Source: Phycisphaerales bacterium (GTDB lineage: Bacteria > Planctomycetota > Phycisphaerae > Phycisphaerales > UBA1924). Taken from it: a stretch of DNA of 64,000 nt. A program made the position numbers and the translations under genes. The notes beneath the pieces were generated by a model. It did no database searches. It had not been told where the DNA came from and saw nothing but the letters and a program-made list of their open reading frames with translations. The stretch lies in NCBI GenBank assembly GCA_016699835.1, contig CP064987.1:1776876-1840875 (forward strand). Direction: 5' to 3'. Positions 16 through 59,843 of the stretch are shown one piece after another (positions within the stretch are counted from its first letter, which is position 1; each line of letters opens with the position of its first letter).

Positions 16-55
16 CCAAATGGCCAAAGGGACAAATGGCCAAATTACCAAATGA
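16..55 (+). repeat. Five tandem 8-nt units (CCAAATGG CCAAAGGG ACAAATGG CCAAATTA CCAAATGA); left arm of a 40-nt inverted repeat
   Basis: Read directly from the sequence. It is AT-rich against a GC-rich background. Its reverse complement recurs at 169-208. Confidence 0.8.
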
Positions 56-168
56 AAGGCGACAAGCGAGTTCCATGGCCGGCGATCACCGCGATCGACG
101 TTGGCTCCTCTCTCTACCGCCACCACATGCCCAAGGTTCCACACCACGACCCGCCTCATCTTCTCTGG

Positions 169-30785: not shown

Positions 30786-30796
30786 TGCCTCCCCAT

Positions 30797-30852
30797 GTGG
30801 CCCGCCTCTCCGAGGCGGGTCTCATGATGGCACCGATCTACAGAGCGGTGGC
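30797..30852 (+). repeat. Two tandem family B hairpins (GTGGCCCGCCTCTCCGAGGCGGGTC and GGCACCGATCTACAGAGCGGTGGC)
   Basis: Read directly from the sequence. The second copy is degenerate and abuts the stop codon at 30853. Confidence 0.65.
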
Positions 30853-51279: not shown

Positions 51280-51780
51280 TCACGAAGCCGTGTACTTCCC
51301 ACGCCCCGCACGCTTGAACACCTTCGGATACTTGACCAGCGTCTGGTTCACGATCGTCCGGAAGTTCGGCGAGTTCGTCTTATACCCCGCCTTCTGAACC
51401 TCCACCACAATGTCCTTCACCCGAAGTGTCTTGCCCGACAGTAACTTCTTGAGCGCCGGCACCAGGGGCATGTCATTCACAGGACGCGTCCGTCCCCCAC
51501 CACCGCGACGACCCGCGGGACGACCCGCAGGACGACCCACAGGACGGCCACGCTTCGCGCGAGCCGGCGCGGGACCCGCAGCCGCCGAACCACCACCGGC
51601 CGAAGGAGGACTCCCCGGCGCAAGGTCCGCGATCTGCTGCTCGATCTCCCGCAGTTTCGCCGTCAGCCGCTGACGCTCACGCTCCAACCGGCCCACCGAA
51701 CTCTGCCGCCGAACCAACTCCGCCTGCAGTGCCCGGCTCGAAATCTTCGACAACGAATATCCACTACCACGCTTTGCCAT
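51280..51780 (-). CDS. Hypothetical DNA-binding protein: N-terminal coiled coil, AT-hook-like RGRP repeats, C-terminal winged-helix-like domain
   Basis: The coiled-coil part reads LERERQRLTAKLREIEQQIADL. The AT-hook-like part reads KRGRPVGRPAGRPAGRRGGGG. The C-terminal part reads LRVKDIVVEVQKAGYKTNSPNFRTIVNQTLVKYPKVFKRAGRGKY. Confidence 0.6.
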   Translation of the reverse strand: MAKRGSGYSLSKISSRALQAELVRRQSSVGRLERERQRLTAKLREIEQQIADLAPGSPPSAGGGSAAAGPAPARAKRGRPVGRPAGRPAGRRGGGGRTRPVNDMPLVPALKKLLSGKTLRVKDIVVEVQKAGYKTNSPNFRTIVNQTLVKYPKVFKRAGRGKYTAS

Positions 51781-52040
51781 GAAATGTCCTTCTCATCCAA
51801 GATGAAACACGCGGGCGAACGCCTTGGATCGCGTCACGCTGCCCTCGCGTCTTCGACGCTCAATACGCCGACACGCACGCGCGTCTCCCAATAGTCGCCG
51901 AACGCGCCCACATGCACGCCGGAGAGTCGCGGTGGGATGGCCGCAACAACGCGAATATTAGCGGAATCCACACCCCCATGCGGGATTCTTGACAAAAACC
52001 AATTGCAACTTCAACGACAGTAACCCCTGTTTGGTGTCCG

Positions 52041-53039
52041 TCAATAGTTCTCTCGCGAGAATCCAAGTTTCGAGAGCACGCCATCGAACTGATCGAGTGA
52101 GAAAAACGAGACTATCACTTGCCCCTTCGTGCCTCGACGATCCGTTCGAATCGATACCCGAGTGCCAAGATGTTGCGACAACCGCTTCTCAATATCACGC
52201 ACAACCGCCTCACGAGGGGAATACGTGACCGGGTCCGGATTCGCCCCGGCAACCCGTGCCGCCTCGCTCGCGCCTTCTCCCGCCCGTCGCGACTCCTCCT
52301 CCACACGACGCACGCTCCAGCCGTTCGACGCCGCCTGCTTCGCGAGCGCCACGCGTCGAACGCCGGCCGGCGCCATCAACAGTGCTCGCGCGTGCCCCCC
52401 AGAGAGACGACCGTCCGAGACCATCATCGCGACCTCGTCCTCCAACTCCGTCAGCCGAACCAGGTTCGCGATCGTCGAGCGATCGATCCCAAGTCGTTCC
52501 GCCATCTGGGCCTGGGTCAATCCAAACTCGTCCGCTAGCCGCCGAAGCGCGTGCGCCCGATCCATCGGATTCAGGTCCTCACGCTGTACATTCTCAACAA
52601 GCCCCCACTCCGCCGAATCCTCATCCGTCAACTCACGAACCATCGCCGGAATATGCGTCAGCCCCGCCAACTTCGCGGCACGCCACCGCCGCTCCCCAGC
52701 CACCAACTCCAACTTCCCCCCAGCAATCGGCCGCACGATAATCGGTTGCATCAACCCCGACCGACGGATCGACGCCGCCAACCCCTCCACCGCCGCCGAG
52801 TCCATCACCCGCCGAGGCTGATACTCGCTCGGCACCACCCGTTCCACCGCAATACTCTGATACCCCTCACTCCGAATCTTCTCACCAACTTCCGCAGCGT
52901 TCATACCAGTCTGTATAGTCTGTGTTTGTTCGGTATGCGAAGCAACTTCGACTGGTTTGCTAACATTGATCAAGCTGCTAAGCCCGCGTCCAAGCCGCCG
53001 TCCCTTCACCGCTTCCGCGCCCTTGTTTGACTCGGCCAT
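52041..53039 (-). CDS. parB: Chromosome partitioning protein ParB/Spo0J
   Basis: Translation RRLGRGLSSLI...YQPRR...LAASIRRSGLMQPIIVRP...LVAGERRWRAAKLAGL...ENVQREDLNPMD. GGAGG lies 6 nt upstream of Met163. The 494-aa ORF extension is rejected. Confidence 0.9.
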   Translation of the reverse strand: MAESNKGAEAVKGRRLGRGLSSLINVSKPVEVASHTEQTQTIQTGMNAAEVGEKIRSEGYQSIAVERVVPSEYQPRRVMDSAAVEGLAASIRRSGLMQPIIVRPIAGGKLELVAGERRWRAAKLAGLTHIPAMVRELTDEDSAEWGLVENVQREDLNPMDRAHALRRLADEFGLTQAQMAERLGIDRSTIANLVRLTELEDEVAMMVSDGRLSGGHARALLMAPAGVRRVALAKQAASNGWSVRRVEEESRRAGEGASEAARVAGANPDPVTYSPREAVVRDIEKRLSQHLGTRVSIRTDRRGTKGQVIVSFFSLDQFDGVLSKLGFSRENY

Positions 53040-53075
53040 GAATGTCCTCCTGTAATAACCCGAATTGTACCGCTC

Positions 53076-53531
53076 ATGCGCGCGCAACAGGGAGTGTTTC
53101 ACGTGGCACAAATTGAACTCATCGCCAGAGGCATCTCCCGCCACCGCGGCAAAGTCCTGCTCTGTGGCCACGCTACCAAAAACTACTGGTACCTCCCAGG
53201 CGGCCACGTCGAACCCCACGAATCGGCCGCCGCCGCACTCGCCCGTGAGTTTCTCGAAGAAACCGGCCTGAAAGTCACCGTTGGCCCCTGTGTCGCTGTC
53301 GCAGAGCACATCTTCCGCCAGGGCAAAAAACACCGCCATGAGGTAAATCTTGTGTTTCACGTGAAACATCGGGAAAAGGATGCCCGCTCTCTCGAGCCAG
53401 AGATCGTGTTCAAATGGTGCCGCATCGACGAACTGGAGACGCTTGATCTTCGCCCTGCAGTGGCCGTGGATCTGGTGAAACTCCATCCTGGCGAGGTGCG
53501 GCATTTCCTCTGGAACTCGGACCAAAGTTGA
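53076..53531 (+). CDS. NUDIX hydrolase
   Basis: GGHVEPHESAAAALAREFLEETGL is a complete match to the NUDIX box GX5EX7REUXEEXGU. Confidence 0.85.
   Translation: MRAQQGVFHVAQIELIARGISRHRGKVLLCGHATKNYWYLPGGHVEPHESAAAALAREFLEETGLKVTVGPCVAVAEHIFRQGKKHRHEVNLVFHVKHREKDARSLEPEIVFKWCRIDELETLDLRPAVAVDLVKLHPGEVRHFLWNSDQS
53095..53110. other. Degenerate parS-like site TGTTTCACGTGGCACA (14 of 16 matches to the palindrome)
   Basis: Read directly from the sequence. It lies 56 nt from the parB start, inside the NUDIX 5' end. Confidence 0.55.
53353..53368. other. parS centromere-like site, perfect palindrome TGTTTCACGTGAAACA
   Basis: Exact 16-bp palindrome matching the canonical parS consensus tGTTNCACGTGAAACa. 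It lies inside the NUDIX CDS. Confidence 0.85.
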
Positions 53532-53554
53532 TTCGCTGACAACCCGATCCCAGA

Positions 53555-54376
53555 TTGGTGGATCCGAATCAGCCCAAATCAGAACTGGACGTCGCGGGCC
53601 AGGTTGACCGCCTCCGCGCGCGTGTGGCCGAGTTGGAGCGATCGGCTTTGCTGGGCACCGTTCTGGCTGGCGTGGCCCACGAAATCAATAACATCCTCAC
53701 ACCCGTTCTGGCGTATGCGGAGATGGCCGTGCGGTCCACGGAGGATGATCCGGTTCGTGGGAAGTCGATCGAGCGGACTTTGGCTGGGGTGGGGCGAGCG
53801 GCGACGATTTCGCGGGCGGTTTTGAGTCTTGTGAGGCAGTCGGGGCCTGTGTCTGGGGATTTGGATGTGGCGGCAGCGGTGGACACGGCAGTTACCGCGG
53901 TGCGGGCGCACTACCCGACCACATTGTTCCACGTGAAACATTCCCTACTCACAGCGTCCGTGCCGGAGGCTCAGGTTTCGACGATACTGGAAAATTTGCT
54001 GATGAATGCGGCGCGGGAGAGTTCTCGGGTTGAGGTTGTTGCGCGCGCTGCGGGTATGAATGAGGGTCAGGATTTGTGGGAGGGGATAGAGTGTCGGACG
54101 GAAATTCCGAAGGGTGATGTTGTGTTTGTCGAGGTGTTTTCGCCTGGGAGTCGGATGGCCTTGGAGATGCTGGCGGCCGTGGCGCGTATGTTCCGTGGGG
54201 AGGCGTTTGGTGCCGGGCGTGAGGCACGTGGAACTGGGTATGGCCTAACAATATCCAAACTATTGGCTGATCAGATTGGGGCTGGGCTTGGGTTGGTTTC
54301 GGAGCCTGGTGGAGTTCGGGCAATTCTCGCGCTTCCTGTGTCCTCGGTGAAACAGGAAGCGGGTGCCATGCGATAG
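53555..54376 (+). CDS. Soluble sensor histidine kinase (HisKA plus HATPase_c only)
   Basis: The H-box reads LAGVAHEINNILTPVL. The G-box reads GTGYGLTISKLLADQIGAGLGL. There are no TM segments and no adjacent response regulator. The start is TTG or GTG at 53555/53558. Confidence 0.75.
   Translation: MVDPNQPKSELDVAGQVDRLRARVAELERSALLGTVLAGVAHEINNILTPVLAYAEMAVRSTEDDPVRGKSIERTLAGVGRAATISRAVLSLVRQSGPVSGDLDVAAAVDTAVTAVRAHYPTTLFHVKHSLLTASVPEAQVSTILENLLMNAARESSRVEVVARAAGMNEGQDLWEGIECRTEIPKGDVVFVEVFSPGSRMALEMLAAVARMFRGEAFGAGREARGTGYGLTISKLLADQIGAGLGLVSEPGGVRAILALPVSSVKQEAGAMR
53925..53940. other. parS centromere-like site TGTTCCACGTGAAACA
   Basis: It matches the canonical parS at 15 of 16 palindromic positions and is identical to the classical Bacillus-type sequence. 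It lies inside the kinase CDS. Confidence 0.8.
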
Positions 54377-56068: not shown

Positions 56069-56098
56069 CCACCGCTCTGGAGAGCAGTGCCACCTTGG
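56069..56098 (-). repeat. Family B palindromic element, inverted orientation
   Basis: The reverse complement reads CCAAGGTGGCACTGCTCTCCAGAGCGGTGG. Confidence 0.75.
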
Positions 56099-56135
56099 GG
56101 GCCGCCTTGGAGAGGTGGGCCGCCATGAGAGTTGT

Positions 56136-56897
56136 CTATCTTCGGGCGCGGATGAAGACGCCGCAGGTGAAGAGGGGGTCGTGGGTTTCGAGTTCGCGGG
56201 TGCTCATGTCTTCGACGGTGAGGCCGGCGAGGAAGGCGAAGGCGAGGCGGAGGTTGCCCCAGGATTCGATTCTGATGTGGTCGGCGGGGAAGTGTCGCTC
56301 GAAGACGAGTCTGGCGAGGTCTGGGGTGAGTCGCCAGTAGTGGCCTGGGATGTTTTCTTCCTGGCCATCGATTTTGCCGAGGGTGGGGAGGGTGACGAGC
56401 ATGACGCCGCCGGGCTTCAGGACGCGTTTCATGTTGCGGATGGCGCCGTCGAGGTCGTCGATGTATTGGAGTGTTTGGGTGCAGATGAAGCAGTCGTAGG
56501 TCTCGTCGGCGATGGAGTGCATCGTCTTGATGTCGTCGTGGATATTGGCGAGGGTGTTGGAGGTGGCGATGTCGAGGACGTCGGAGTGGGTGACGTTCTG
56601 GCCGCCGAACTGTCTGGTGTAGTCGGGGTCCTTGATCTCGAGGACTCGGCCTTTGATGTCTGATTTGTATCGTTCGAGGAACTGCTCGATGTATCGGCGG
56701 TCGATGGGCGTGCCGCGGTCGGTGCCGACGAGGGGGCTGATGGGTCGGGTGGAGTGGGAGAGCATGTAGAGCCATCGGGGGCGGAGGAGGCGTTTAAGGG
56801 GCTTGTCGAGCATGGCGCTTGCGCGGCCGAGGGCTCTTTGGGCGAGACTTCGGCGCGGTTGGTTGTGGGTCGGAGTTGAGGGGTCTGTATTCGCCAT
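56136..56897 (-). CDS. Class I SAM-dependent methyltransferase
   Basis: Translation GRVLEIKDPDY...FICTQTLQYIDDLDGAIRNMKRVLKPGGVMLVTLP. Confidence 0.7.
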   Translation of the reverse strand: MANTDPSTPTHNQPRRSLAQRALGRASAMLDKPLKRLLRPRWLYMLSHSTRPISPLVGTDRGTPIDRRYIEQFLERYKSDIKGRVLEIKDPDYTRQFGGQNVTHSDVLDIATSNTLANIHDDIKTMHSIADETYDCFICTQTLQYIDDLDGAIRNMKRVLKPGGVMLVTLPTLGKIDGQEENIPGHYWRLTPDLARLVFERHFPADHIRIESWGNLRLAFAFLAGLTVEDMSTRELETHDPLFTCGVFIRARR

Positions 56898-56919: not shown

Positions 56920-58581
<1,662 letters not shown>

Positions 58582-58626
58582 AGGCCGTCAGGTCGCGACG
58601 GTCGGACATCGAATGTTGATCCACAC

Positions 58627-58653
58627 GCCCGGGGCGAGAGCTCCGGGCTTTTT
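58627..58653 (+). terminator. Rho-independent terminator (GCCCGGGG-CGAGAG-CTCCGGGC-TTTTT)
   Basis: The hairpin and T-run lie 46 nt after the atpD stop. Confidence 0.7.
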
Positions 58654-58697
58654 CGTTGTCGTGAGCGCCTCGTGATTGCCGCATTCGGCCCGTGGCG

Positions 58698-59843
58698 TCA
58701 CTTCGGCTGCACTTGACGCCGGGCCTCATCCAGAATTTCGGCGACGACCACGTTGTACTCGAGGCTCGACAGCGGGTCGACGGCACACTCGCCGCGCACG
58801 ACCGCCTTCAGATACGACCACTCGTTCTCCAGATTCTTTGGCTTCGCGGCGGGCTGCACCTTTGTTGGCCCGGCGTTCTCCTGTCGCATGGCGAGATCGT
58901 CCCACTTGCCCGCGTGCAGCGACCATCCATCGAGGTACAGGTCCATCTCTTTGTTGTCGTGGGTCCAGGCCCACGATGCCTCGATCACGGCGGTCGCGCC
59001 CACGCGCGTTTCTTTACCCGGATAGGTGAGCACGATGGTGGCGTCGTCATCGACGTGTGGATATGCCGCGGGCTTGAGCGTCGTCGCGCTCGCCTTGATG
59101 CTTGAGGGGCGCGTTCCGTCCATCATCCACGTGGCGATCACCGCGCCGTAGCACCCGAAATCGACGATCGCGCCGCCGCCGTTCTTTGTTGGATCGGTCA
59201 GCCACGCCAGGAACTCCGCTGAACAGCCGATCTCTTTGGGGCCTTTGTGTCCGTGGCGGAAGATCATCTTGCGCAGGGTGCCATGCTCACCCGAGTCCGC
59301 GAGTCGCTTTGCTTCTCGCACCGACGCGTACCAACTTGTCTCGAAGTTTGTCAGGACCAGCACCTTGTGGGCGCGGGCCGCCTCCTGGATCGCTTTCGCA
59401 TCTTCGCTGGAATACGCGAGCGGTTTCTCGAGCAGGGTGTGCACGCCCCTGGCGGCGCAGGCCTCGACGGCCGCCCGATGCCCGGAGATCGGGCCCATCA
59501 CGCTGACGGCTTCGGGCTTGGTTGCGTTGAGCATCGCCTCCGTCGTCGCGTAATACAGCGACGCCTCGAGTATGTATTTGGCGGCCAGGCGATCGAAGAG
59601 GGCGCGATTCGGCTCGCTGATGCCGACGATCACCATGTCGTCGCGGTGCGTGGCGTTCCAGAGCAGCCCTTCGATGTGCCCGTGGTCCATCCCGATGATG
59701 CCGATCCGCAGCGGTCCTGCCTGCTTCGAGAGGAGAACGTCGGCGTGGTCCTTTGGCTCATCGGCGTGTGTTCGAGGTGCGCACGCCAGGCTCAGGGTCA
59801 ATACCGTCAGGCCTGTCATCACATTCATCAGCATGTGCATCAT
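58698..59843 (-). CDS. Gfo/Idh/MocA family oxidoreductase, secreted
   Basis: A signal peptide is followed by the Rossmann motif LRIGIIGMDHGH. Confidence 0.8.
   Translation of the reverse strand: MMHMLMNVMTGLTVLTLSLACAPRTHADEPKDHADVLLSKQAGPLRIGIIGMDHGHIEGLLWNATHRDDMVIVGISEPNRALFDRLAAKYILEASLYYATTEAMLNATKPEAVSVMGPISGHRAAVEACAARGVHTLLEKPLAYSSEDAKAIQEAARAHKVLVLTNFETSWYASVREAKRLADSGEHGTLRKMIFRHGHKGPKEIGCSAEFLAWLTDPTKNGGGAIVDFGCYGAVIATWMMDGTRPSSIKASATTLKPAAYPHVDDDATIVLTYPGKETRVGATAVIEASWAWTHDNKEMDLYLDGWSLHAGKWDDLAMRQENAGPTKVQPAAKPKNLENEWSYLKAVVRGECAVDPLSSLEYNVVVAEILDEARRQVQPK

What the first reader, a model, noticed from the sequence alone, without database searches (positions are those of the whole stretch)
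52900..53600. Strand-composition polarity flip (origin-type GC-skew switch) with no dnaA and almost no non-coding DNA
Left of about 53.3 kb the + strand is C-rich whatever the gene orientation. Right of about 53.6 kb it is G-rich.

My hand tallies of C:G on 60-nt lines:
- 53101-53160: 22:14
- 53161-53220: 24:13
- 53221-53280: 22:16
- 53281-53340: 21:15
- 53341-53520: roughly even (14:16, 16:17, 16:20)
- 53581-53640: 18:25
- 57301-57360: 16:29

Gene-orientation bias flips at the same place. The large genes to the left are on the minus strand (lysS, the P-type ATPase, gyrA, dnaE, clpB, nhaA, parB). The large genes to the right are on the plus strand (kinase, dehydrogenase, atpD, pyrB).

A negative-to-positive skew switch read 5' to 3' is the classical signature of a replication origin. 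Yet there is no dnaA or dnaN in the window. The nearest non-coding stretches are only 36 bp (53040-53075), 23 bp (53532-53554) and 260 bp (51781-52040). I could not see a cluster of TTATCCACA-type boxes; the best single match is GAATCCACA at 51964-51972.
Basis: partly seen in the sequence, partly recalled or inferred. Interest (0 to 1): 0.8.

Follow-up and report, generated by a model that had tools for sequence, protein, structure and literature searches.

The report
Chromosome origin at a parS centromere
The strand-composition flip is real and most likely marks where this Phycisphaeraceae (Planctomycetota) chromosome starts replicating; it sits on a cluster of three parS centromere sites next to parB, inside protein-coding DNA, with none of the usual origin landmarks (dnaA, DnaA boxes, a non-coding AT-rich stretch) detectable.

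Summary
Plus-strand GC skew is about -0.3 for 53 kb and flips to +0.2 to +0.35; the best change point is 53,337. The flip also holds at third codon positions for genes on both strands, so it is a replication-strand bias. It occurs inside a Nudix ORF.

They are the only ones in 64 kb, bracket the flip and lie directly upstream of an orphan parB.

Three relatives show the same flip at the same parS site: L001, L026/27 and the distant L012. The window also carries a derived 25-kb inversion that spans the flip without disturbing skew. This rules out an inversion endpoint and supports a replication origin.

Canonical origin parts are missing:
- no dnaA or parA in the window or within 10 kb of parB in 54 related loci;
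- no DnaA-box cluster anywhere, and none at all (up to 2 mismatches) in the kilobase around the flip;
- no strongly AT-rich element;
- no intergenic gap over 36 bp.

One sister lineage (L029) keeps the module intact and collinear, but its flip lies about 19 kb away. So parS does not by itself fix the origin.

Verdict: an origin region with a superimposed centromere, in an unusual architecture. Interest is moderate.

The parts
53243..53712 (.). Zone of the strand-bias switch (best point 53,337). This is the inferred start of bidirectional replication.
   Evidence: Cumulative minimum and change point. Support intervals. Third-position G/C is 12/48 before 53,340 and 21/18 after, within the Nudix ORF. 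The four-genome overlap of support intervals corresponds to 53,479-53,529.
53095..53110 (.). parS-1: TGTGCCACGTGAAACA, 1 mismatch to TGTTNCACGTGAAACA. It overlaps the first codons of Nudix.
   Evidence: 0.07 sites expected by chance in the whole window. Conserved in L001 and L026. Lies in the invariant block.
53353..53368 (.). parS-2: TGTTTCACGTGAAACA, a perfect palindrome inside Nudix that encodes V-F-H-V-K-H. It lies 16 bp from the cumulative-skew minimum.
   Evidence: The homologous codon position carries parS in L001, L002 and L012.
53925..53940 (.). parS-3: TGTTCCACGTGAAACA, 0 mismatches, inside the histidine-kinase ORF.
   Evidence: Conserved in L001; L026 has a parS site at the matching position.
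52041..53039 (-). parB (332 aa): ParB_N with the GERRWRA motif, HTH_ParB and ParB_C. It is an orphan, with no adjacent parA.
   Evidence: Pfam. NCBIfam parB_part. Sequence. No Soj/ParA homolog in the window or 54 loci. GC3 skew -0.52, so it lies on the left arm.
53076..53531 (+). Nudix hydrolase ORF (151 aa). It contains parS-1, parS-2 and the skew switch. The N-terminal two-thirds are under purifying selection.
   Evidence: Pfam NUDIX 2.7e-17. Orthologs in 7 loci. dN/dS of about 0.2 for codons 1-97.
53555..54376 (+). Soluble histidine kinase (HisKA + HATPase_c). It is conserved divergently from parB across Phycisphaerae.
   Evidence: Synteny. GC3 skew +0.51, so it lies on the right arm.
53015..53115 (.). 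Nearly invariant block of about 100 bp: parB start codon, 36-bp spacer, Nudix start and parS-1. Probably the divergent regulatory region.
   Evidence: Three-genome alignment. Four-fold-site divergence is 0.07-0.08 in Nudix codons 1-30, against 0.25-0.43 locally.
51280..51780 (-). orf166: a conserved gene downstream of parB with a coiled coil, an Arg/Gly/Pro linker and a C-terminal domain of unknown family.
   Evidence: Synteny in 7 loci. dN 0.010 against L001. No Pfam, NCBIfam or PDB match.
51781..52040 (.). The only sizeable non-coding stretch near the flip (260 bp, between the parB stop and the orf166 start). It is 94-95% conserved against L001. It is not the switch.
   Evidence: It holds one of the least stable duplexes of the window. 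parB, which lies between it and the flip, has left-arm composition.
30793..30850 (-). Left junction of the window-specific 25-kb inversion that spans the switch. Carries a copy of a ~58-bp double-hairpin (REP-like) element.
56070..56127 (+). Right junction of the same inversion. Carries an inverted copy of the same element.

Best explanation
This is the replication-origin region of the main chromosome of a Phycisphaeraceae bacterium, with the ParB-parS centromere lying on top of it.

Shown directly:
- The mutational strand bias (G and T enriched on the leading strand) reverses within a few hundred bases of the central parS site.
- Three consensus parS sites, spaced 258 and 572 bp apart, flank the reversal.
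- parB lies immediately to the left.

Inferred:
- Bidirectional replication starts at about 53.3-53.6 kb, in the 3' part of the Nudix ORF, the 23-bp spacer and the start of the histidine-kinase gene.
- One fork runs left through parB, clpB, dnaE and gyrA, which are co-oriented with it. The other runs right.
- ParB clamps load at the three parS sites as soon as they are copied, so the newly replicated origins are the first DNA to be organised and segregated.
- The element that melts the DNA, and the protein that recognises it, are not identified. dnaA lies more than 53 kb away on one side and more than 10 kb away on the other. No DnaA-box array is present.
For: - The polarity is origin-type (minus to plus, read 5' to 3'). 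It holds at third codon positions for genes of both orientations and flips inside one ORF.
- Genes are mostly co-oriented with forks leaving this point.
- Three parS sites occur where 0.07 are expected by chance. They are the only ones in 64 kb and lie within -242 to +588 bp of the flip.
- ParB is canonical. The literature places chromosomal parS mainly close to oriC (PMC5961200, PMC4368675).
- The same flip lies at the homologous Nudix-embedded parS in L001, L026/27 and L012 (ParB 48% identical). Support intervals overlap at +126 to +176 bp from that site.
- The window differs from L001, L026 and the L029 lineage by an inversion of 30.85-56.07 kb that contains the flip. Skew is undisturbed at both junctions, as expected only if the flip is a replication axis.
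- Housekeeping content (gyrA, dnaE, lysS, atpD, pyrB) shows this is the main chromosome.
Against: - No dnaA or dnaN occurs in the window. No dnaA lies within 10 kb of parB in any of 54 loci.
- There are zero TTATCCACA-like sites (up to 2 mismatches) in 52.8-53.8 kb, against 1.67 per kb on average. No cluster of three or more boxes occurs in 837 kb of related sequence.
- There is no clearly AT-rich unwinding element. The least stable 100-mer nearby is 52,874-52,973, inside parB and left of the flip.
- No repeated motif other than parS is present.
- In the L029/L002 lineage the intact, collinear module shows no flip. Its origin-type flip lies about 19 kb away. So the module is not sufficient, and flips can relocate.
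- Only 10.6 kb of right arm is visible, with a weak-skew stretch at 57-60 kb.
- The replicon-wide minimum could not be computed.
Confidence: 0.75

Rival explanations
1. Fossil origin. The skew step records where replication started for most of the lineage's history, but the active origin has recently moved. Composition has not yet re-equilibrated.
For: Origin-type flips do move in this clade. L012 and L029 are collinear, yet the same genes have GC3 skew of +0.4 to +0.7 in L012 and -0.3 to -0.4 in L029. L029's flip is about 19 kb from its parS sites. No canonical origin parts are seen at the window's flip.
Against: The step is very sharp, and it is shared by four genomes that have diverged to saturation at synonymous sites. 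A recent move would have to be specific to the window. Nothing in the window shows a competing flip.
Confidence: 0.08
2. The true oriC is the conserved 260-bp non-coding stretch 51781-52040 (or another nearby gap), and the compositional flip is displaced by about 1.3 kb.
For: It is the only sizeable non-coding DNA nearby. It is 94-95% identical to L001, more than parB itself. It contains the best single DnaA-like box (GAATCCACA) and a low-stability duplex.
Against: parB lies between it and the flip and has GC3 skew of -0.52, typical of the left arm. The flip maps to the right of parB in L001, L026 and L012 as well. One box with two mismatches is no more than chance gives. The stretch is equally explained as the orf166 promoter and leader.
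Confidence: 0.06
3. The flip is the endpoint of a recent inversion or other rearrangement and has nothing to do with initiation.
For: The window does carry a derived inversion, and synteny with relatives breaks at 56.07 kb.
Against: The inversion endpoints are at 30.85 and 56.07 kb, not at 53.3 kb. Sequence is collinear across the flip in all relatives. The flip is present in relatives with the ancestral arrangement and in distant L012. The flip lies inside an intact, conserved ORF.
Confidence: 0.02
4. It is a terminus in an organism with reversed skew polarity, or a by-product of gene orientation, transcription or codon usage.
For: None beyond the bare existence of a flip.
Against: A terminus would put 72% of left-arm coding DNA head-on to replication, including dnaE, gyrA, lysS and clpB. 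parS and parB are origin-proximal in known systems. GC3 skew follows the arm and not the gene strand.
Confidence: 0.01

Closest known systems
Canonical DnaA-dependent oriC (E. coli gidA-mioC oriC; B. subtilis dnaA-dnaN oriC)
   Same: An origin-type GC/AT-skew switch on the main chromosome. Genes are co-oriented away from it. Inversions across it preserve skew.
   Different: No dnaA or dnaN nearby, no cluster of DnaA boxes, no evident AT-rich unwinding element and no intergenic region. The switch lies in coding DNA. Absence of dnaA alone is not unusual: E. coli's oriC is about 42 kb from dnaA (own knowledge), and SkewDB finds dnaA within 5% of the skew origin in just over 80% of chromosomes (PMC8941118).
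Origin-proximal chromosomal ParABS centromeres (B. subtilis Spo0J/parS, Caulobacter parS about 8 kb from Cori, P. aeruginosa parS1-4)
   Same: The 16-bp palindromic parS matches the Firmicute/Proteobacteria consensus. ParB has CTPase-type N-terminal, HTH and dimerisation domains. parS sites lie inside ORFs, as in B. subtilis spo0J (own knowledge). The location is origin-proximal.
   Different: parS lies within about 0-300 bp of the inferred initiation point, not kilobases away. parB is an orphan: there is no parA in the window or within 10 kb in 54 related loci. It is instead followed by a conserved unknown gene (orf166) and faces a conserved Nudix-histidine kinase pair.
Origins without recognisable DnaA boxes or with dispensable DnaA (some cyanobacteria and reduced symbionts; own knowledge)
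   Same: No detectable DnaA-box array at the inferred origin.
   Different: Those genomes typically have weak or irregular skew. Here the skew is among the strongest I am aware of (0.19 G deficit per nucleotide), which implies one fixed, heavily used origin. Whether this organism has DnaA is unknown.

Membership tests
Bacterial chromosomal replication origin (oriC, DnaA type) | Minus-to-plus GC-skew switch of the replicon, with leading strands G- and T-rich | tested here: met
   Tested locally only; the replicon-wide minimum is not available.
Bacterial chromosomal replication origin (oriC, DnaA type) | Cluster of DnaA boxes (TTATCCACA and close variants) | tested here: not met
   No site with up to 1 mismatch between 48.7 and 57.8 kb. 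No site with up to 2 mismatches in 52.8-53.8 kb, and no enrichment for 3 variant consensus sequences. No cluster in 837 kb of related loci.
Bacterial chromosomal replication origin (oriC, DnaA type) | AT-rich DNA-unwinding element next to the boxes | tested here: inconclusive
   GC drops to 0.56-0.58 around 52.8-53.6 kb, against 0.64 overall. The least stable 100-mer nearby (52,874-52,973) is in the top 0.3% of the window, but it lies inside parB and left of the flip. No 13-mer-type repeats.
Bacterial chromosomal replication origin (oriC, DnaA type) | Intergenic location, commonly beside dnaA, dnaN or gidA | tested here: not met
   The gaps are 36 and 23 bp. There is no dnaA or dnaN in 64 kb.
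Bacterial chromosomal replication origin (oriC, DnaA type) | Initiation activity (marker-frequency peak, autonomous replication, DnaA binding) | not testable with these tools
   Needs sequencing reads from growing cells or experiments.
Chromosomal ParB-parS centromere | 16-bp palindromic parS matching TGTTNCACGTGAAACA, in multiple copies | tested here: met
   Three sites with 0-1 mismatch, against 0.07 expected. Conserved in relatives.
Chromosomal ParB-parS centromere | ParB with a CTP-binding N-terminal domain (GxxRxxA), an HTH domain and a C-terminal dimerisation domain | tested here: met
   Pfam ParB_N 3e-32, HTH_ParB 3e-30, ParB_C 7.5e-14. The GERRWRA motif is in the translation. TIGR00180 scores above its cut-off.
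Chromosomal ParB-parS centromere | Partner ParA (Soj) ATPase encoded in the same operon | tested here: not met
   No ParA-like gene in the window. A parA elsewhere in the genome is not excluded.
Chromosomal ParB-parS centromere | Origin-proximal position | tested here: met
   The sites lie within 600 bp of the skew switch. In the L029 lineage the distance is about 19 kb.
Chromosomal ParB-parS centromere | ParB binding and spreading at these sites; SMC loading | not testable with these tools
   Needs ChIP-seq or Hi-C.

The most novel reading that the evidence does not exclude
Some Phycisphaeraceae chromosomes may fire from an origin that has no DnaA-box array. That origin is embedded in protein-coding DNA directly beside the parS centromere.

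Its position is not hard-wired to a conserved oriC cassette. In a sister lineage the strand-bias switch moved about 19 kb, into a block holding phage-like head genes. The local gene order, and the sequence at the old site, stayed intact.

This would imply one of two things. Either origin recognition is non-canonical (a divergent DnaA specificity or a different initiator, possibly coupled to ParB-parS), or origins can be replaced by captured foreign replicons.
Probability: 0.25. Interest if true: 0.8.

Novelty: new variant of a known kind. Interest (0 to 1): 0.5.

Why it matters
Replication origins of Planctomycetota have not been characterised, as far as I could find. This phylum already departs from textbook cell biology.

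The skew here is strong enough to place the leading/lagging switch to within a few hundred bases. That yields three testable statements:
- Initiation occurs in coding DNA, within about 300 bp of a parS site.
- It occurs without a recognisable DnaA-box array.
- The switch has moved about 19 kb in a collinear sister lineage.

If confirmed, this would be a compact natural case of an origin fused to a centromere, and of origin turnover without rearrangement.

If whole-genome data show an ordinary DnaA-box origin elsewhere, the locus is simply an origin-proximal parS-parB centromere, which is ordinary.

Tried and rejected
1. Exact-sequence look-ups of the window's Nudix, ParB and dehydrogenase found nothing on record. 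The source genome itself could not be retrieved.

2. GATC (Dam-type) clustering at the flip looked suggestive by eye but is not significant: 5 sites against 2.6 expected. GATC is very frequent genome-wide, at 10 per kb.

3. A "hypervariable patch" starts exactly at the right edge of parS-2 (53,369-53,630). Its identity to L001 is 51-57%, with dS about 1.8 and dN about 0.76. At first it looked like an origin-linked mutation hot spot. Adding L026 showed that only L001 is diverged there; window against L026 is 0.78. Pairwise identities are mosaic along the whole region, so lineage-specific divergence or recombination explains it. The peptide is still homologous to that of distant orthologs.

4. 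The word ACTCGGACC, shared between the window and L012, lies in a different context in L012. It is a chance match.

5. De novo searches found nothing beyond parS half-sites and GC-rich low-complexity words. These searches looked for motifs repeated at the flip, shared between the window and L012, or shared with the relocated L029 switch zone.

6. Rfam and tRNA scans found only one tRNA-Ser at 250-339. The sigma-70 promoter scan found nothing in 49.7-54.5 kb.

7. Literature searches for Planctomycetes or Phycisphaerae origins, DnaA boxes and parS returned nothing specific.

8. I could not locate dnaA in any related genome.
Full report
**Observation.** All nine C:G tallies, the three non-coding gaps and the GAATCCACA match reproduce exactly.
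- In 2-kb windows, plus-strand GC skew is -0.20 to -0.42 from position 1 to 53 kb. It then becomes +0.15 to +0.29 up to 57 kb and stays positive to the end.
- The cumulative minimum is at 53,337 and a two-segment likelihood change point at 53,340.
- The 2-unit support interval is 53,243-53,399 or 53,315-53,712, depending on the flank length used.
- AT skew flips the other way, so one strand is rich in both G and T.
- The size is exceptional. The left arm loses 0.19 G per nucleotide. SkewDB calls about 0.025 typical and uses 0.046 as its worked example (PMC8941118).

**It is a replication-strand bias and not a gene-orientation effect.** I built a gene map from ORFs whose GC3 pattern fits coding DNA and annotated it with Pfam and NCBIfam.
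- GC3 skew expressed on the + strand is negative for all 35 genes left of the flip, whichever strand encodes them. It is positive or near zero (down to +0.01) for the genes right of Nudix, for example +0.73 for minus-strand gene 56136-56897.
- The flip falls inside one ORF. Third-position G/C is 12/48 in Nudix codons before 53,340 and 21/18 after. parB immediately to the left is -0.52 and the histidine kinase immediately to the right is +0.51.
- Coding-strand bias agrees with forks leaving this point: 72% of coding bases on the minus strand to the left, and 64% on the plus strand to the right. The right arm has only ten genes.

**What sits at the flip.**
- The long minus-strand ORF 52041-53525 is parB (52041-53039) plus a shadow extension.
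- parB is canonical. It has ParB_N, HTH_ParB and ParB_C domains and the GERRWRA motif.
- Divergent from it, after a 36-bp spacer, are a Nudix hydrolase (53076-53531) and a soluble histidine kinase (53555-54376).
All match TGTTNCACGTGAAACA with 0-1 mismatch. No other such site occurs in 64 kb, where 0.07 are expected by chance.
- The cumulative-skew minimum is 16 bp from the central site.

**Source and relatives.** ParB-based scans place the window in Phycisphaeraceae, Planctomycetota. They returned close relatives L001 (ParB 92% identical) and L026/L027 (94%, identical to each other), plus many distant ones.
- L001 and L026/27 have the same three parS sites and the same sharp flip, from about -0.3 to +0.3.
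- So does L012, whose ParB is only 48% identical.
- Relative to the start of the Nudix-embedded parS, the flip maps as follows:

| Genome | Flip position | Support interval |
|---|---|---|
| Window | -16 | -38 to +359 |
| L001 | +104 | -109 to +176 |
| L026 | +268 | -14 to +278 |
| L012 | +140 | +126 to +434 |

- The intervals share +126 to +176, which corresponds to window 53,479-53,529. This is the end of the Nudix ORF, just before the kinase start.
- The parS inside Nudix encodes a conserved V-F-H-V-(K/E)-H strand in the window, L001, L002 and L012, so it is old.
- The module histidine kinase-Nudix / parB-orf166 is conserved in at least seven loci.
- Weaker origin-type transitions lie 1-4 kb upstream of parB in L003, L006, L009 and L011.

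**Not an inversion endpoint.**
- Sequence is collinear across the flip in all close relatives.
- Beyond the dehydrogenase gene, L001 and L026/27 continue into the window's 30.85-to-21 kb block in reverse orientation.
- The distant L029 lineage also has the ABC-transporter gene, reversed, right after its kinase.
- The window therefore carries a derived inversion of about 25 kb (30.85-56.07 kb) that contains the flip.
- Both junctions hold inverted copies of a ~58-bp double-hairpin element. Skew is undisturbed across them.
- An inversion that contains a replication axis keeps every gene's leading or lagging status. This is what is seen.

**Canonical origin parts are absent.**
- No dnaA, dnaN or parA is in the window.
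- tblastn with E. coli DnaA and B. subtilis Soj found nothing in the window or in any of the 54 loci held at that point.
- TTATCCACA with up to 1 mismatch occurs 7 times in 64 kb (4.2 expected), and never between 48.7 and 57.8 kb.
- With up to 2 mismatches there are no sites in 52.8-53.8 kb, against 1.67 per kb on average. Three variant consensus sequences are not enriched either.
- No cluster of three or more boxes exists in 837 kb of related sequence.
- The flip lies in a shallow GC trough of 0.56-0.58. The least stable 100-mer nearby (52,874-52,973) is inside parB, on the left arm.
- GATC is not enriched.
- Repeat and motif searches return only parS.
- Suppressed synonymous change is seen only in Nudix codons 1-30. 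This matches a ~100-bp invariant block (53,015-53,115) covering the parB start, the spacer and parS-1. The simplest reading is a regulatory region.
- The 260-bp non-coding stretch at 51,781-52,040 is well conserved. It cannot be the switch, because parB lies between it and the flip and has left-arm composition.

**A lineage that lost the flip.**
- L029, L002, L030 and L035 are about 99% identical to one another. They are collinear with L012 in the same orientation across the module and about 10 kb beyond parB, at 65-78% identity and with no large indel at the flip.
- The same orthologous genes nevertheless have GC3 skew of +0.4 to +0.7 in L012 and -0.3 to -0.4 in L029.
- An inversion cannot change coding-strand composition. 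These genes must have been replicated in opposite directions for a long time.
- I walked the 221-kb contig of this lineage. Its origin-type flip lies about 19 kb from its two parS sites. It falls in a block between phosphoglucomutase (GC3 skew -0.64) and an OEP gene (+0.59). That block holds an SPP1-type portal gene, an SU10-type capsid gene and several small unannotated ORFs.
- That zone has no DnaA-box cluster either.
- So the parS module does not by itself fix the origin, and the switch can relocate without local rearrangement.
- L018, L019 and L031 also carry parB inside uniformly negative skew.

**A lead that dissolved.** Against L001, the 260 bp immediately right of parS-2 is the most divergent stretch in 14 kb: 51-57% identity, with dS about 1.8 and dN about 0.76. 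dS is also 2-4 times higher across 52-56 kb than across 43-52 kb. With L026 added, only L001 is diverged in that patch, and identities are mosaic along the whole region. A recombining-population history explains this better than an origin-linked mutation hot spot.

**Mechanism.**
- *Shown:* a sharp, conserved reversal of replication-strand mutational bias at a parS cluster beside parB.
- *Inferred (confidence about 0.75):* bidirectional replication starts at about 53.3-53.6 kb, in coding DNA. ParB loads on the three flanking parS sites, so the origin and the centromere are effectively one locus.
- *Unknown:* what is recognised and melted, and by which protein.

**Comparison and novelty.**
- The locus is a member of the ParB-parS centromere class on every sequence-testable criterion except an adjacent parA.
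- It behaves like an oriC in skew. It fails the testable sequence criteria of a DnaA-type oriC (boxes, intergenic location, dnaA linkage) and is inconclusive for an unwinding element.
- An origin away from dnaA is a known minority case (PMC8941118).
- The unusual points are the absence of any box array, the coding location, the sub-kilobase coincidence with parS, the extreme skew and the relocation in a sister lineage.
- I rate it a new variant of a known kind and of moderate interest. The main caveat is that everything rests on composition and comparative sequence, not on replication data.

Noticed in passing
window 1-64000; also L001, L012, L026, L029: The skew magnitude is extreme. The G deficit is 0.19 per nucleotide on the left arm, and GC3 skew reaches 0.5-0.76, roughly 8 times the value SkewDB calls typical. 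It is lineage-specific within Phycisphaerae: many related loci show almost no skew.
   Followed up: partly
L029/L002/L030/L035 and L055-L066 (merged L065+L060, 32.9 kb): A sister lineage keeps the kinase-Nudix-parS-parB-orf166 module collinear with L012, but the strand bias of the adjacent genes is reversed. Its origin-type switch lies about 19 kb away, in a block with SPP1-type portal and SU10-type capsid genes plus unannotated ORFs. This may be origin relocation or capture of a foreign replicon.
   Followed up: partly
window 30793-30850 and 56070-56127: The window alone carries a 25-kb inversion spanning the switch. Both junctions hold inverted copies of a ~58-bp double-hairpin (REP-like) element, GCCACCGCTCTGGAGAGCGGTGCCACC...GCCGCCTTGGAGAGGCGGGCC.
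   Followed up: partly
window 53369-53630 (against L001 9340-9670): In L001 only, the DNA from the last base of parS-2 to about codon 25 of the kinase is almost unalignable (51-57% identity), although the ORFs stay intact. Identities among the three close genomes are mosaic along 49.6-55.9 kb, which suggests frequent recombination. One junction falls exactly at parS.
   Followed up: yes
window 51280-51780 (-): orf166 is always found downstream of parB in this clade and is under very strong constraint (dN 0.010). It has a coiled coil, an Arg/Gly/Pro-rich AT-hook-like linker and a C-terminal domain with no family. The L012 ortholog gives only a weak HARE-HTH hint. It may be a ParB-associated DNA-binding partner in a clade where parB has no adjacent parA.
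   Followed up: partly
window and all 54 loci held: parB is an orphan throughout these Phycisphaerae loci: no ParA/Soj homolog lies within 10 kb. A small histidine kinase with no sensor domain is conserved divergently from parB even in distant members (L008, L011, L018, L019, L022, L023).
   Followed up: partly
window, whole: The tetranucleotide AGCT is strongly avoided: 11 observed, against 105 expected from a Markov model and 200 from base composition. TTAA occurs once. This may reflect restriction avoidance (an AluI-type site).
   Followed up: no
window 56980-59843: atpD (F1 beta subunit) stands alone, without other atp genes. Together with the neighbouring GFO/IDH-type oxidoreductase, it has almost no GC3 skew (+0.10 and +0.01) inside a strongly skewed arm. 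This may indicate recent arrival or relocation.
   Followed up: no
L050 9105-10438: A distant relative (ParB 37% identical) has eight parS sites packed into 1.3 kb around the parB start, but no measurable GC skew.
   Followed up: no
L012 6082-6963: The Nudix ortholog at L012's switch appears frameshifted at both ends relative to L002. This is either an assembly error in a long-read hybrid MAG or decay of the gene while the DNA, including parS, is retained.
   Followed up: no
window 18-57 and 168-207: Arrays of CCAAAT/ATTTGG-type short repeats in opposite orientation lie just upstream of tRNA-Ser (250-339). They are among the most AT-rich stretches of the window.
   Followed up: no
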